Assembly (NCBI GenBank): GCA_001029715.1
Contig: CP011212.1
Span: 3,407-67,406 of the forward strand
Reading direction: 5' to 3'
Origin: a candidate division TM6 bacterium GW2011_GWF2_28_16
GTDB taxonomy: Bacteria; Patescibacteriota; Microgenomatia; UBA1400; PJMF01
Length of the DNA stretch: 64,000 nucleotides
Shown here: positions 53,049 to 57,545 of the stretch, in pieces
Position numbering within the stretch: position 1 is the first letter of the stretch
How the letters are laid out: the number at the start of each line of letters is the position of its first letter
Notes under the pieces: generated by a model
Database searches by the model: none
Told to the model about the DNA's origin: nothing
What the model saw: only the letters and a program-made list of their open reading frames with translations
Translations under genes and position numbers: made by a program

Positions 53049-53903
53049 ATGAAACAGCACCCAATCCCACAGGATATCACCAACTATAAGTTTCATCTTA
53101 TTGGCAGCATGACGCTTAAGCAATTTGCAGAAGTGGCTGTAGCTGCAGTCTTGGCTTTTATTATTTTTAAAACAAATTTAATCGCTATTGTTAAATGGCC
53201 ACTAATTTTCTTTACGGTTGGTTTGGGAGCAGCTTTAGCTTTTGTACCAATTGAAGAAAGGCCTCTAGATCACTGGATCCAAACTTTTTTCAAAAACATC
53301 TATAAGCCTACAAAGTTTTTTTGGAAAAAAGCTAGTAAAATTCCAGATTTTTTCAATTATAAAATTAGTAGTGTTCAAAGTGATTTTTTCGCACCCAACG
53401 TTAATTTAAACCCAGCTCGTAAACAACGTATTAATGAATACATTAAAAGTATTCCTGAAGCGGAAAAGGTTGATGAATTTGACGCCGGAGAAAATCAAAA
53501 GATCAGTGCCTTACTCAATCAGTTTAATGATGTAAAAGTTGATCAAGATCAGATTAAAATTGAAGTCAAAAAACAAGAAAAACCAAACCTGCAAACAAGA
53601 GTTAGAGATCTGAAAGCTCCTCAAGAGGAACTTGATAATAAAAAATATTCAACCAACCAAATTTTTGGCTCAGTAATTGGTCAGAATGGACAAAAAGAGT
53701 CAGAAGTAATTATTGAAATAAAAGATCAAAGTGGCGAAAGTCTTAGAGTCATCAAAAGTGATGAGGATGGCAATTTTGTTGCTAACAATCCACTAAAAAA
53801 TGGATCTTATCAAGTAATAGCTGAAAAAAACGATCAAAAATTTCCAATTTTGCAAGTAGAACTCACTGGACAAATTCTCGATCCCCTTGTAATCAAAGCA
53901 TAA
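53049..53903 (+). CDS. PrgI/VirB3-like membrane protein (N-terminal two-TM module) with a C-terminal soluble extension
   Basis: The N-terminus PQDITNYKFHLIGSMTLKQFAEVAVAAVLAFIIF followed by a second TM matches the PrgI-family pattern (DI..Y....G.T.RQ... then TM hairpin). It lies upstream of VirB4-like genes. Confidence 0.45.
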   Translation: MKQHPIPQDITNYKFHLIGSMTLKQFAEVAVAAVLAFIIFKTNLIAIVKWPLIFFTVGLGAALAFVPIEERPLDHWIQTFFKNIYKPTKFFWKKASKIPDFFNYKISSVQSDFFAPNVNLNPARKQRINEYIKSIPEAEKVDEFDAGENQKISALLNQFNDVKVDQDQIKIEVKKQEKPNLQTRVRDLKAPQEELDNKKYSTNQIFGSVIGQNGQKESEVIIEIKDQSGESLRVIKSDEDGNFVANNPLKNGSYQVIAEKNDQKFPILQVELTGQILDPLVIKA

Positions 53904-53927
53904 AATTTAGTAAACTATTGCTAGCTC

Positions 53928-55337: not shown

Positions 55338-55346
55338 AATATAAAT

Positions 55347-57545
55347 ATGTTTAATCCTTTTGCTAAGAAAAAGACCATCGAATCGGCAGACCAGGGAAAA
55401 ATGAATGTCGATCAATACACGCAGGATAAATTAAGCGAATTTTCTCGTGGTCTCGTCACAATCCAAGACATTATTGCTCCTGAAGCAATTGAGGTTGATT
55501 TTACTTATCAAAAGATTAATTCCACTTACACTCGCACTTTATTTATTGCTGGTTACCCTCGTGCCGTTCCAGCCAACTGGCTTTCCCCTTTGATTAATTA
55601 TCCAAATCAAGCCAATATCTCAATGTTTGTTTTTCCGTCAGATACTGGTGATATTCTGGACGATCTTAAGAGAAAAATTACCGAAATGGAAGCTGAAATC
55701 ACTTCCGACATTAGATCTGGAAAAATCAGTAACATTAATACAGAAATTAAACTAAGTGATGCTAGAAGCATGCGTGAACAACTAGCTGCTGGTTCAGAAA
55801 GATTTTTTCAATTCGGGCTTTATGTAACGATAAAAGCAGATAACAAAGAAGAACTCGATAGAATTACCAAAAGCATCCAGGGAACTCTAGGCGCATTAAT
55901 GATTGTTTCGAAGAAATCCTCTTTGCAAATGGACGAGGGATTTAAAACTACCCTACCAATGGGCGTCGATCGCTTGCAGGTGACTAGAAACATGGATACC
56001 ACTTCCTTGGCGACTACCTTTCCATTCACTTCTTCAGAATTAACCATGGAAACCGGAATCGTTTATGGCATCAACGAACACAACGATTCCCTGGTGATTT
56101 TCGATCGTTTCAAAATGGAAAATGCCAACATGGTTGTTTTTGCTAAATCTGGTGCAGGTAAATCTTACACAGTGAAGCTAGAGATTCTCCGTCAATTAAT
56201 GTTTGATGCTGAAGTCATTGTTCTCGATCCAGAGCATGAATACGAAGAACTATGTAAAATGGTTGGTGGTGAATATATTAATTTTACCTTTGGCTCAGAT
56301 GCTAAAATTAATCCTTTCGATTTATCCAATGTTTATGAAGAAGGAGAAAACGAGCTGGGACAAAAAATCCTGTCGATTCATGGTCTTTTAAAAGTCATGC
56401 TCGGCGAAATGACTCCGCAGCAGGAAGCCTTGCTCGACCGCTCAATTATTGCTGCCTATAAAGCCAAAGGCATTACCCCAGATCCAGCCACTCAAAAAAA
56501 TACTCCTCCACTTATGGAAGATTTATATAAAGCCCTGATTGGTATGGAACGAGATGAAAGCGATGACCTAGCAGCTCGTTTGGAAAAATTTATCACTGGC
56601 TCCTTCCGCGGAATTTTTAGCCAGGCTTCAAACGTAGACATTAAGTCGCAATTCACTGTTTTTTCAGTCAAAGAAATGGAAGAATCTCTGCGTCCAATCG
56701 CCATGTACGTTATTCTTGACTTCATTTGGACTAGAGTTAAAAAGGATTTAAAGAGACGCATTTTAGTTATTGATGAGGCCTGGTATTTTATGATGCATCC
56801 AGATAGCGCGGCTTTTGTTTATTCCATGGTTAAAAGAGCCCGTAAATACTACCTTGGCATTACTACCATCACTCAAGATGTAGAAGATTTTTTACGCAAT
56901 GATTATGGCAAAGCTATTGTTTCCAACGCATCCATTCAGTTCTTAATGAAGCAATCTACTTCTTCAATTCCTATTTTGACTCAAACCTTTTATCTATCTG
57001 AAGGAGAAAGACAGCTTCTAGTTTCTTCCGATGTTGGCGAGGGTATTTTCTTCGCTGGCCAAAATCATGTTGCGCTCCGAGTAATTGCTTCTGCTGATGA
57101 ACACCAAGTAATCACCACTAATCCTGAAGAAATTTTAGAAGAAAGAGCAAAAAAAGAAGCAAAAAAAACAGTTACTGGAAACAGTGAACCTAGATCTGAA
57201 AGCTATGAGAGCTATCAAAAGATTAGAGAGCTAAAAAAGCAACGCCTTTTAAATAGCAGTGATTTTAAAAATGCGAATAAAACAGTTGGAAATCAAGAAA
57301 ATCAACCCAAATGGCAAAATCCGGACATAAAAATTGGCGAGGATGTGCTTAAAAATGCTAATCAAAATGCCGAAGCCGCTTTAAAAAATGATCAATTAAA
57401 ATTTGATCCCGACAAAGAATTAAGCGAAAGAGATGGGAGAAACGTCCCAAAAATTAAAACTATTTTTGGAGAAACAGAAGAAAAAGCATTGAAACCAGAT
57501 CAACATGGCACCTATAGTATTAACGACTATCAGCCCCCTAAGTAA
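55347..57545 (+). CDS. VirB4/TrbE/PrgJ-family conjugal-transfer-type ATPase (Gram-positive type)
   Basis: N-terminal region typical of monoderm VirB4 (IQDIIAPEAIEVDFTYQKINSTYTRTLFIAGYPRAVPANWLSPL); Walker A VVFAKSGAGKSYTV; Walker B ILVIDEAWYFM; C-terminal VirB4 conserved block (YYLGITTITQDVEDF). Confidence 0.85.
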   Translation: MFNPFAKKKTIESADQGKMNVDQYTQDKLSEFSRGLVTIQDIIAPEAIEVDFTYQKINSTYTRTLFIAGYPRAVPANWLSPLINYPNQANISMFVFPSDTGDILDDLKRKITEMEAEITSDIRSGKISNINTEIKLSDARSMREQLAAGSERFFQFGLYVTIKADNKEELDRITKSIQGTLGALMIVSKKSSLQMDEGFKTTLPMGVDRLQVTRNMDTTSLATTFPFTSSELTMETGIVYGINEHNDSLVIFDRFKMENANMVVFAKSGAGKSYTVKLEILRQLMFDAEVIVLDPEHEYEELCKMVGGEYINFTFGSDAKINPFDLSNVYEEGENELGQKILSIHGLLKVMLGEMTPQQEALLDRSIIAAYKAKGITPDPATQKNTPPLMEDLYKALIGMERDESDDLAARLEKFITGSFRGIFSQASNVDIKSQFTVFSVKEMEESLRPIAMYVILDFIWTRVKKDLKRRILVIDEAWYFMMHPDSAAFVYSMVKRARKYYLGITTITQDVEDFLRNDYGKAIVSNASIQFLMKQSTSSIPILTQTFYLSEGERQLLVSSDVGEGIFFAGQNHVALRVIASADEHQVITTNPEEILEERAKKEAKKTVTGNSEPRSESYESYQKIRELKKQRLLNSSDFKNANKTVGNQENQPKWQNPDIKIGEDVLKNANQNAEAALKNDQLKFDPDKELSERDGRNVPKIKTIFGETEEKALKPDQHGTYSINDYQPPK

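What the first reader, a model, noticed from the sequence alone, without database searches (positions are those of the whole stretch)
53049..57545. Extra VirB4-N-terminal-domain-like protein between a PrgI/VirB3-like gene and the complete VirB4 ATPase
The 53928-55337 protein has an N-terminal 90 aa (VLLKDGTASMILQVGTMNFSLLAEQEQDAIIFTYGSLLNSLNYPIQISIQS) that look like the conserved N-domain of VirB4/CagE/TrbE proteins, the region that contacts VirB3. It has no ATPase motifs and ends in a long Pro/Glu/Gln-rich tail. The downstream gene is a complete VirB4 with its own N-domain. This looks like a duplicated, detached VirB4 N-domain, or a remnant of a second VirB4.
Basis: inference. Interest (0 to 1): 0.55.

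Follow-up and report, generated by a model that had tools for sequence, protein, structure and literature searches.

The report
Split VirB4: TrsD-like N-terminal piece
The "extra" gene is the detached first ~210 residues of the VirB4 secretion ATPase (a TrsD-family protein already reported as common in Patescibacteria), and the ATPase gene after it lacks exactly that piece, so this is one VirB4 encoded in two genes and not a duplicate.

Summary
The three genes are real: a PrgI/VirB3-like gene (53049-53903), a 469-aa protein (53928-55337) and a VirB4 ATPase (55347-57545). Residues 1-~210 of the 469-aa protein are homologous to the N-terminal segment of full-length VirB4 and to TrsD/TraD of staphylococcal plasmids. 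It has no Walker motifs. Its 244-aa tail is acidic and Pro/Glu/Gln-rich.

The downstream VirB4 is not complete: it lacks the first ~170-240 positions of full-length VirB4 models, and the upstream protein supplies them. The matches are complementary (model positions 101-278, then 280-892). An in-silico join aligns end to end with three VirB4 models. Natural fused proteins exist in two other lineages. The two proteins show no similarity to each other.

PrgI - TrsD-like - VirB4 - dnaA is conserved in nearly all of the 80 related genomes, and wherever both genes are present (77) a stop codon separates them. This rules out a pseudogene, a remnant or an assembly artefact.

The family is already published: TrsD is the most abundant T4SS component in Patescibacteria and is essential in Southlakia epibionticum (PMC12102498).

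Two modest additions come from this work: the explicit complementarity, and conserved short peptides inside the variable disordered tail. Interest is low to moderate.

The parts
53049..53903 (+). PrgI/VirB3-like membrane protein (284 aa). It has two hydrophobic segments near residues 21 and 43, plus a C-terminal beta-sandwich-like extension (residues 204-260).
   Evidence: Pfam PrgI PF12666, E 9.6e-7, 29.7 bits against a cut-off of 27, residues 5-89. CarboxypepD_reg match E 3.8e-4, below its cut-off. Hydrophobic segments. Conserved immediately upstream in nearly all 80 related loci.
53928..54563 (+). TrsD-like module (residues 1-212 of the 469-aa protein). It is the detached first half of the VirB4 N-terminal domain.
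   Evidence: NCBIfam TrsD, VirB4_plasma positions 101-279 and CD1110 positions 17-120. Homologues carry the precomputed Pfam accession PF26593. A family profile finds 2512 proteins at E<=1e-3. The AF2 model has mean pLDDT 67.6, and its top 14 Foldseek PDB hits are all TrwK/VirB4. Residues 1-212 align to residues 1-209 of the natural fusion P0212 at 46% identity.
54564..55337 (+). Acidic, Pro/Glu/Gln/Thr-rich tail, probably disordered (residues 213-469), including the TAA stop codon.
   Evidence: Composition and net charge -34. Residues 202-230 have pLDDT below 50. In relatives the whole protein ranges from 243 to 704 aa because tail length varies.
55185..55226 (+). Conserved short peptide DFAEEIKPLQNKFE inside the tail (residues 420-433).
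   Evidence: The same motif, [DN]F[AST]EEI.PLQ..FE, sits at the same distance from the end in the closest relatives L001-L010 and L021 and in several more distant ones. 15 of 74 tails match a loose form of it.
55335..55349 (+). Gene junction: TAA stop, 9 nt (AATATAAAT), then the ATG of virB4, in the same reading frame.
   Evidence: Sequence read directly. In relatives a stop is always present, and the two genes share a frame in 28 of 77 loci, which is the chance level.
55347..55472 (+). Poorly conserved leader of VirB4 (residues 1-42). Natural fused proteins lack it.
   Evidence: P0212 aligns from residue 43 of the window protein. This region is variable in alignment A2.
55473..56036 (+). Second half of the VirB4 N-terminal domain (residues 43-230).
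   Evidence: Pfam CagE_TrbE_VirB profile positions 126-196 at residues 137-204. SCO6880 model positions 325-477 at residues 57-207. Alignment A3.
56037..57116 (+). VirB4 ATPase domain (residues 231-590). Walker A is AKSGAGKS at residue 266 (56142-56165) and Walker B is ILVIDE at residue 472 (56760-56777).
   Evidence: PDB 4AG5 (VirB4 C-terminal domain), E 7e-51, residues 231-590. Pfam P-loop_TraG, AAA_10 and DUF87. Motifs.
57132..57545 (+). C-terminal extension of VirB4 (residues 596-732, mixed charge), shared only with closer relatives.
   Evidence: tblastn coverage stops near residue 600-620 in most loci and reaches residue 732 only in the closer ones. Composition.

Best explanation
In this Patescibacteria (Microgenomatia/'Pacebacteria') type IV secretion locus, VirB4 is encoded as two polypeptides. 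Gene 53928-55337 makes the first ~210 residues of the VirB4 N-terminal domain (a TrsD/TraD-family module) followed by a long acidic disordered tail. Gene 55347-57545, which starts 9 nt later, makes the rest: the second half of the N-terminal domain plus the P-loop ATPase.

Shown here: the homology, the complementarity, the collinearity with full-length VirB4, the existence of natural fusions, and conserved gene order under purifying selection.

Inferred: the two products are made together from one operon and reassemble non-covalently into a complete VirB4 N-terminal domain. In the R388 machine this domain carries the VirB3 contact and the VirB4-VirB4 dimer contact. If so, the TrsD-like piece is an obligatory subunit of the ATPase/PrgI membrane complex and not an accessory or a decoy.

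The free C-terminus created by the split carries a lineage-variable disordered arm with short conserved peptides. This arm probably tethers or recruits a partner that is still unknown.
For: 1. Complementary model coverage. The 53928 protein covers VirB4_plasma positions 101-278 and CD1110 positions 17-119. The 55347 protein covers positions 280-892 and 172-733 of the same models. All 16 family members hit the VirB4_plasma N-region.

2. In-silico join. Joining N-module residues 1-212 to VirB4 from residue 43 onward gives a single continuous match to CD1110 17-733/752, VirB4_plasma 101-892/894 and TIGR00929 11-726/792. Scores rise from 394 to 403 bits and from 268 to 286 bits.

3. Natural fusions. 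P0212 (787 aa) has residues 1-209 matching the N-module (46% identity) and residues 213-780 matching the window VirB4 residues 43-609 (62% identity). P0267 shows the same junction on another contig. P0271, P0275 and P0289 are fused forms from a second lineage.

4. Structure. The N-module model's top 14 PDB hits are all TrwK/VirB4 (probability 0.77-0.99). The model of fused P0212 aligns with full-length TrwK over about 860 columns at E 4.8e-22.

5. Conservation. PrgI, N-module, VirB4, dnaA and dnaN keep the same order in the related loci. In all 77 loci that hold both genes a stop codon separates them, and the median gap is 11 nt.

6. The same split occurs in Firmicutes. The pGO1-type plasmid has TrsC, TrsD (228 aa) and TrsE (672 aa). 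A Pontibacillus plasmid has a 281-aa TrsD-like protein followed by a 621-aa CD1110-family VirB4. The unsplit PrgJ-like protein (796 aa) has 185 extra N-terminal residues.

7. Literature. [quoted passage not shown] The VirB4 N-terminal domain (residues 15-400 in TrwK) binds VirB3 and mediates VirB4 dimerisation (PMC9259494).
Against: No physical interaction was tested or modelled as a two-chain complex. The structure tool folds single chains only.

The N-module match to the TrsD model is far below NCBI's family cut-off (28.9 bits against 200), and the match to the VirB4 models is weak for the single sequence (E 1e-6 to 1e-3).

Both AF2 models have only moderate confidence (pLDDT 67.6 and 70.7). 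The global rmsd to TrwK is large (about 17 Å), so the packing of the module against the rest of VirB4 is not established.

The profile comparison with the N-terminus of the unsplit PrgJ-like protein is only suggestive (hhalign probability 18.6%, E 1.3e-3, in register).

Nothing tested here explains why the split is maintained or what the tail does.
Confidence: 0.78

Rival explanations
1. One reading: an additional, duplicated VirB4 N-domain sits beside a complete VirB4, for example as a regulator or decoy competing for VirB3.
For: The module is VirB4-related. The AF2 secondary-structure order of the module resembles that of the next ~150 residues of VirB4, so the two halves might descend from a very old internal duplication.
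Against: The downstream VirB4 lacks the corresponding model positions. There is no pairwise similarity (E 0.32) and no profile similarity (hhalign probability 2%). The joined sequence is collinear with full-length VirB4 models with no overlap. Fused natural proteins contain each part only once.
Confidence: 0.04
2. A decaying remnant of a second virB4 gene, or a virB4 broken by a nonsense mutation or a sequencing error (pseudogene or artefact), possibly rescued by stop-codon readthrough since the two ORFs are in frame.
For: In the window the two ORFs share a frame and are separated only by TAA plus 9 nt.
Against: The stop is present in all 77 related loci that hold both genes. The frame relation is 28 same to 49 different, which is the chance level. 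Tail lengths differ from about 15 to about 480 residues. The module is 56-89% identical across species-level genomes. There are 2512 family members at E<=1e-3, nearly all standalone. The window shows no sign of an alternative genetic code (long ORFs under table 11).
Confidence: 0.02
3. The TrsD-like protein is evolutionarily derived from the VirB4 N-terminus but now works independently of VirB4. For example, it could act as a cytoplasmic adaptor whose disordered tail recruits substrates or other machinery.
For: The tail is long, variable and carries conserved short peptides. The terminal LPP[IVL][AP]E[IL]-type motif occurs in 30 of 113 and 40 of 116 relatives against 0.13% of shuffled tails. 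Published work notes that in Gracilibacteria TrsD homologues are not next to virB4 (PMC12102498).
Against: Adjacency and gene order are strictly kept in this clade. The partner VirB4 is always N-terminally short. Fused forms lacking the tail exist. Some relatives have almost no tail (243-263 aa in total), so the conserved core function lies in the module.
Confidence: 0.14

Closest known systems
TrsD/TraD of staphylococcal conjugative plasmids pGO1/pSK41 (NCBIfam NF041427; MPF-FATA class), encoded between TrsC and the VirB4 homologue TrsE
   Same: A small protein with no ATPase motifs, encoded directly between a small membrane protein and an N-terminally short VirB4 (TrsE is 672 aa). It shows significant sequence similarity to the window protein (E 8.9e-7; the A1 profile hits S. 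aureus TrsD at E 2.7e-7). No function has been assigned in the literature (PMC12102498).
   Different: Only about 22% identity, and the match covers model positions 21-142 of 201 at 28.9 bits against a family cut-off of 200. Staphylococcal TrsD (228 aa) has no long tail. The staphylococcal system is a plasmid conjugation system with a relaxase, whereas this one is chromosomal, lies next to dnaA, and belongs to a lineage where most clusters lack a relaxase (PMC12102498).
TrsD homologues of Patescibacteria described by Quinonero-Coronel et al. 2025 (PMC12102498); Pfam accession PF26593 is precomputed for these proteins
   Same: This is the same family. It is the most abundant T4SS component in the phylum (2,272 homologues, 1,664 of them next to virB4). 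The locus lies near dnaA/dnaN/rnpA and carries VirB2-like pilin arrays. A member is essential in Southlakia epibionticum.
   Different: Nothing material differs. In the passages I read or searched by keyword, the paper notes the remote homology to the VirB4 N-terminus but does not state that the adjacent VirB4 lacks that segment. It also does not describe the variable disordered tail or its conserved peptides.
Full-length VirB4 (TrwK of R388; CD1110-family and Mbov_0397-family VirB4; PrgJ of pCF10-type plasmids)
   Same: The window's two proteins together are collinear with these proteins from about model position 11-17 to the C-terminus. The ATPase domain matches 4AG5 at E 7e-51.
   Different: These are one polypeptide, whereas the window has two. 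The window adds a 244-aa tail at the break point and a 137-aa C-terminal extension.
SCO6880-family proteins of actinobacterial conjugative elements (NCBIfam NF042935), and VirB3-VirB4 fusions
   Same: They show that the VirB3/VirB4 module is cut or joined at different points in different lineages. The SCO6880 model matches the PrgI-like protein (positions 13-75), and it matches the junction-spanning part of the joined protein (positions 244-477).
   Different: In the SCO6880 family the membrane segment and the whole N-terminal domain are in one protein and the ATPase is separate. In the window the break lies inside the N-terminal domain and PrgI is a separate protein.

Membership tests
TrsD/TraD family (NCBIfam NF041427) | Score at or above the curated family cut-off (200 bits) over the whole 201-position model | tested here: not met
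   28.9 bits, E 8.9e-7, covering model positions 21-142 only. S. aureus TrsD scores 227.6 bits. The window protein is therefore a distant homologue, not a member in NCBI's strict sense.
TrsD/TraD family (NCBIfam NF041427) | A small non-ATPase protein encoded immediately upstream of the VirB4 homologue and downstream of a small VirB3-like membrane protein | tested here: met
   The window order is PrgI, then this gene, then VirB4, with gaps of 24 and 9 nt. The same order is seen in the pGO1-type plasmid. No Walker A motif is present.
Pfam PF26593 (domain of Patescibacteria TrsD-like proteins and of some full-length VirB4) | Match to the Pfam model | tested here: inconclusive
   The accession is precomputed for P0001 (100% identical over residues 1-230), for all 120 listed homologues, and for fused VirB4 P0271. 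The local Pfam copy returned no family for the window protein, probably because it lacks this model. I could not look up the model's name.
VirB4 N-terminal domain, first half | Sequence homology to the N-terminal ~200 positions of full-length VirB4 models, collinear with the rest of VirB4 | tested here: met
   VirB4_plasma positions 101-279: all 16 members hit, best E 1.6e-10. CD1110 positions 17-120: 5 of 16 members hit. The joined sequence matches each of three VirB4 models end to end in one stretch. Natural fusions exist.
VirB4 N-terminal domain, first half | Same fold and same position as residues ~15-200 of TrwK in the R388 structure | tested here: inconclusive
   No hit at E<=0.1 for the 53928 protein. 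The downstream VirB4 matches profile positions 126-196 at 20.3 bits against a cut-off of 21.
VirB4 ATPase (applied to 53928-55337) | Walker A / Walker B P-loop ATPase domain | tested here: not met
   No Walker A motif and no P-loop family hit.
VirB4 ATPase, CD1110 family NF045971 (applied to 55347-57545) | Score above the curated cut-off; Walker A and B present; full-length coverage of the model | tested here: met
   394 bits against a cut-off of 325. Walker A at residue 266 and Walker B at residue 472. 4AG5 match E 7e-51. Coverage starts only at model position 172, so the first part of the model is absent from this polypeptide.
PrgI/VirB3 (Pfam PF12666) (applied to 53049-53903) | Score above the gathering threshold; two membrane segments; adjacency to VirB4 | tested here: met
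   29.7 bits against a threshold of 27, residues 5-89. Hydrophobic segments near residues 21 and 43. Conserved position upstream in relatives.
Physical VirB3-VirB4 N-domain contact | The module binds PrgI and the truncated VirB4 | not testable with these tools
   Only single-chain prediction is available. The contact is known for R388 TrwM/TrwK (PMC9259494).

The most novel reading that the evidence does not exclude
Breaking VirB4 inside its N-terminal domain may have created a free C-terminus that Patescibacteria use to carry a long acidic, proline-rich disordered arm. Conserved docking peptides sit in this arm: DF[AST]EEI.PLQ.KFE in this clade, and a terminal LPP[IVL][AP]E[IL] in about a third of relatives. 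The arm could recruit a substrate or partner to a T4SS that usually lacks a nearby coupling protein. In that case the TrsD-like protein would be both a structural piece of the ATPase and the system's recruitment adaptor.
Probability: 0.18. Interest if true: 0.5.

Novelty: already known. Interest (0 to 1): 0.3.

Why it matters
The type IV secretion system is one of the few machines shown to be essential for the epibiotic life of Patescibacteria, and TrsD is its most common component with no assigned function. Reading TrsD plus the short VirB4 as one split ATPase gives TrsD a concrete structural role: it completes the N-terminal domain that, in the R388 machine, holds VirB3 and pairs VirB4 subunits. 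It also corrects annotation. These VirB4 genes are not complete on their own, and 'hypothetical protein' or 'TrsD' is the missing part. Finally, it suggests simple experiments: co-purification, complementation with an artificial fusion, and tail truncation in Southlakia. None of this changes the general picture of these systems.

Tried and rejected
1. Direct BLASTP of the two window proteins found nothing.
2. Sequence search of the PDB with the protein and with its family profile gave no hits at E<=10.
3. The local Pfam copy returned no family for the 53928 protein.
4. Stop-codon readthrough or recoding, suggested by the in-frame TAA, was rejected. Frames agree in only 28 of 77 relatives and a stop is always present.
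5. The tail as a tandem-repeat expansion: only short, low-scoring repeats were found.
6. The A1 profile did not detect the N-terminus of the unsplit PrgJ-like VirB4 by hmmsearch. A profile-profile comparison with a thin PrgJ N-terminal alignment was in register but weak (probability 18.6%). The last database search returned only 8 mostly fragmentary PrgJ relatives.
8. The promoter and terminator scans were at background level and add nothing beyond the short intergenic gaps.
9. Guglielmini 2014 does not mention TrsD in its main text, and two papers that mention 'TraD' refer to unrelated proteins.
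Full report
WHAT IS THERE. The + strand from 48324 to 57545 carries five closely spaced genes:
- a 1232-aa protein with a weak M23 peptidase match;
- a 327-aa protein with one N-terminal hydrophobic segment;
- a 284-aa PrgI/VirB3-like protein (53049-53903; Pfam PF12666, 29.7 bits against a cut-off of 27);
- a 469-aa protein (53928-55337);
- a 732-aa VirB4 ATPase (55347-57545).
These are followed by dnaA, dnaN, rnpA, yidD, yidC, jag and rnhA. Upstream lie two VirB2-like pilin genes. The closest relatives are Patescibacteria MAGs labelled Pacebacteria or Woesebacteria. 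The window is therefore the origin-proximal type IV secretion locus of a Microgenomatia-type genome.

THE OBSERVATION. The 469-aa protein has a conserved N-terminal module of about 205-225 residues (alignment A1, 72% mean column identity). Its 244-aa tail is 16% Pro, 14% Glu and 9% Gln, has net charge -34 and contains no Walker A motif. The local Pfam library finds nothing. NCBIfam gives three weak but significant matches:
- TrsD/TraD (E 8.9e-7);
- the N-terminal part of the Mbov_0397-type VirB4 model, positions 101-279 of 894 (E 1.8e-6);
- the N-terminal part of the CD1110-type VirB4 model, positions 17-120 of 752 (E 1.4e-3).
All 16 aligned relatives hit the first two of these models, with best E-values of 2.9e-8 for TrsD and 1.6e-10 for the Mbov_0397 model. 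An AlphaFold2 model of the module (pLDDT 67.6) has TrwK/VirB4 chains of the R388 machine as all of its 14 best PDB matches, although the scores are modest.

THE KEY CORRECTION. The downstream VirB4 is not complete. Its matches to full-length VirB4 models begin at position 172/752 (CD1110), 280/894 (Mbov_0397 type) and 238/792 (TIGR00929). Its ATPase domain begins at about residue 231 (4AG5, E 7e-51). That leaves about 230 residues of N-terminal domain, where TrwK has about 400 (PMC9259494). The missing positions are those matched by the upstream protein: 101-278 followed by 280-892.

I joined module residues 1-212 to VirB4 from residue 43 onward. The join gave one uninterrupted match to each of CD1110 (17-733), the Mbov_0397 type (101-892) and TIGR00929 (11-726), with higher scores than VirB4 alone.

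Nature has made the same join. P0212 (787 aa) has the module at residues 1-209 and VirB4 at residues 213-780. P0267 shows the same junction on another contig. P0271, P0275 and P0289 are fused proteins of a second lineage. A model of P0212 aligns with full-length TrwK over about 860 columns (E 4.8e-22), although the domain orientations differ (rmsd about 17 Å).

The two window proteins are not similar to each other. BLASTP gives a best E of 0.32, and hhalign between the two family profiles gives probability 2%. The window contains one copy of each. 'Detached' is therefore right, and 'duplicated' or 'extra' is wrong.

NOT A REMNANT OR AN ARTEFACT. In 80 species-level genomes the order PrgI, module, VirB4, dnaA, dnaN is kept almost without exception. 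In all 77 loci where both genes are present a stop codon separates them, and the median gap is 11 nt. The in-frame relation seen in the window (TAA plus 9 nt) occurs in 28 of 77 loci, which is the chance level. The module is 56-89% identical across these genomes. A profile search of 1.84 billion representatives finds 2512 relatives, and all but one of the best 150 are standalone.

The same split exists in Firmicutes. The pGO1-type plasmid has TrsC, TrsD (228 aa) and TrsE (672 aa). A Pontibacillus plasmid has a 281-aa TrsD-like protein (profile E 2e-36), then a 621-aa CD1110-family VirB4, then an M23 peptidase. The unsplit enterococcal PrgJ-like protein has 185 extra N-terminal residues. TrsD-like ORFs also occur on Geobacillus, Clostridium, actinobacterial and haloarchaeal plasmids.

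HOW IT PROBABLY WORKS. Shown: homology, complementarity, collinearity, natural fusions, conserved adjacency and purifying selection. Inferred: the two products are made together from one operon and reassemble into a full VirB4 N-terminal domain. In R388 this domain is wrapped by VirB3 on the central subunit and mediates the VirB4 dimer contact (PMC9259494). The TrsD-like piece would then be an obligatory subunit of the PrgI/VirB4 membrane complex. This agrees with the published report that it is essential in Southlakia epibionticum (PMC12102498, citing Wang et al. 2023, PMC10633639). No interaction was tested here.

THE TAIL. Tail length varies widely, so whole proteins range from 243 to 704 aa. 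The conserved core function therefore cannot depend on the tail. Even so, the tail carries conserved short peptides. The window's clade has DF[AST]EEI.PLQ.KFE about 35 residues from the end (55185-55226 in the window). About a third of relatives end in LPP[IVL][AP]E[IL] (30 of 113 and 40 of 116, against 0.13% of shuffled tails). This looks like a tethered docking peptide. Its partner is unknown.

COMPARISON WITH THE LITERATURE. Quinonero-Coronel et al. 2025 (PMC12102498) already report TrsD as the most abundant T4SS component of Patescibacteria: 2,272 homologues, of which 1,664 are next to virB4. [quoted passage not shown] They also note the proximity of the locus to dnaA and the pilin arrays. 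In the passages I read or searched by keyword, they do not say that the adjacent VirB4 lacks the corresponding segment, and they do not describe the tail. The finding is thus an already known component. This analysis adds an explicit split-gene reading and the tail peptides.

VERDICT. Novelty is 'already known'. Interest is 0.3.

Noticed in passing
window 54564-55337; related loci L001-L080: The disordered tail of TrsD-like proteins carries conserved short peptides. The window's clade has DF[AST]EEI.PLQ.KFE. About a third of relatives end in LPP[IVL][AP]E[IL] (0.13% in shuffled tails). A third motif, (D/E)LN.T[LV].QLG, appears in some. I did not find these described in the papers read.
   Followed up: partly
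P0212 residues 16-206 versus 218-365 (AF2 model); window 53928-54563 versus 55473-56036: The order of secondary-structure elements in the TrsD-like module recurs in the second half of the VirB4 N-terminal domain. This hints at an ancient internal duplication. The profile comparison is not significant (probability 2%), but its single match pairs equivalent elements.
   Followed up: partly
window 37175-38080 and 38083-39156 (+): Two tandem genes whose products end in a T4SS pilin domain (PF18895, E 1.8e-6 and 7.7e-10). This is a VirB2-like pilin array, as reported for Patescibacteria.
   Followed up: no
window 42789-44537 (+): A 582-aa protein with about nine hydrophobic segments and no Pfam match. 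It is a possible VirB6 analogue, in a class where VirB6 homologues are reported to be scarce.
   Followed up: no
window 48324-52022 (+): A 1232-aa protein with two hydrophobic segments and a weak C-terminal Peptidase_M23 match (E 1.1e-4, below the cut-off). It is a candidate cell-wall hydrolase of the system. The Pontibacillus plasmid has an M23 endopeptidase directly after its VirB4.
   Followed up: no
window 53658-53828 (within the PrgI-like gene): The PrgI/VirB3-like protein has an added C-terminal CarboxypepD_reg-like beta-sandwich (E 3.8e-4, below the cut-off). It is conserved in most relatives, which align over residues 1-284.
   Followed up: no
window 57132-57545: VirB4 has a 137-aa C-terminal extension of mixed charge that only the closer relatives share. 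Most Patescibacteria VirB4 proteins end near residue 600-620.
   Followed up: no
NCBIfam NF042935 matches: The actinobacterial SCO6880-family model matches both the PrgI-like protein and the junction-spanning part of the joined VirB4. In those elements VirB3 and the whole VirB4 N-terminal domain therefore appear to form one protein, with the ATPase separate. The VirB3/VirB4 unit is cut at different points in different lineages.
   Followed up: partly
loci L001-L080, record titles: Many genome records carrying this clearly Patescibacteria locus are titled 'uncultured Pseudomonadales bacterium', 'Methylococcaceae bacterium' or 'Limisphaerales bacterium'. These organism names look wrong.
   Followed up: no
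P0001: This public protein is 100% identical to the window protein over residues 1-230, but it ends at residue 255 with a different C-terminus. It is probably a frameshift or an assembly difference inside the low-complexity tail.
   Followed up: no
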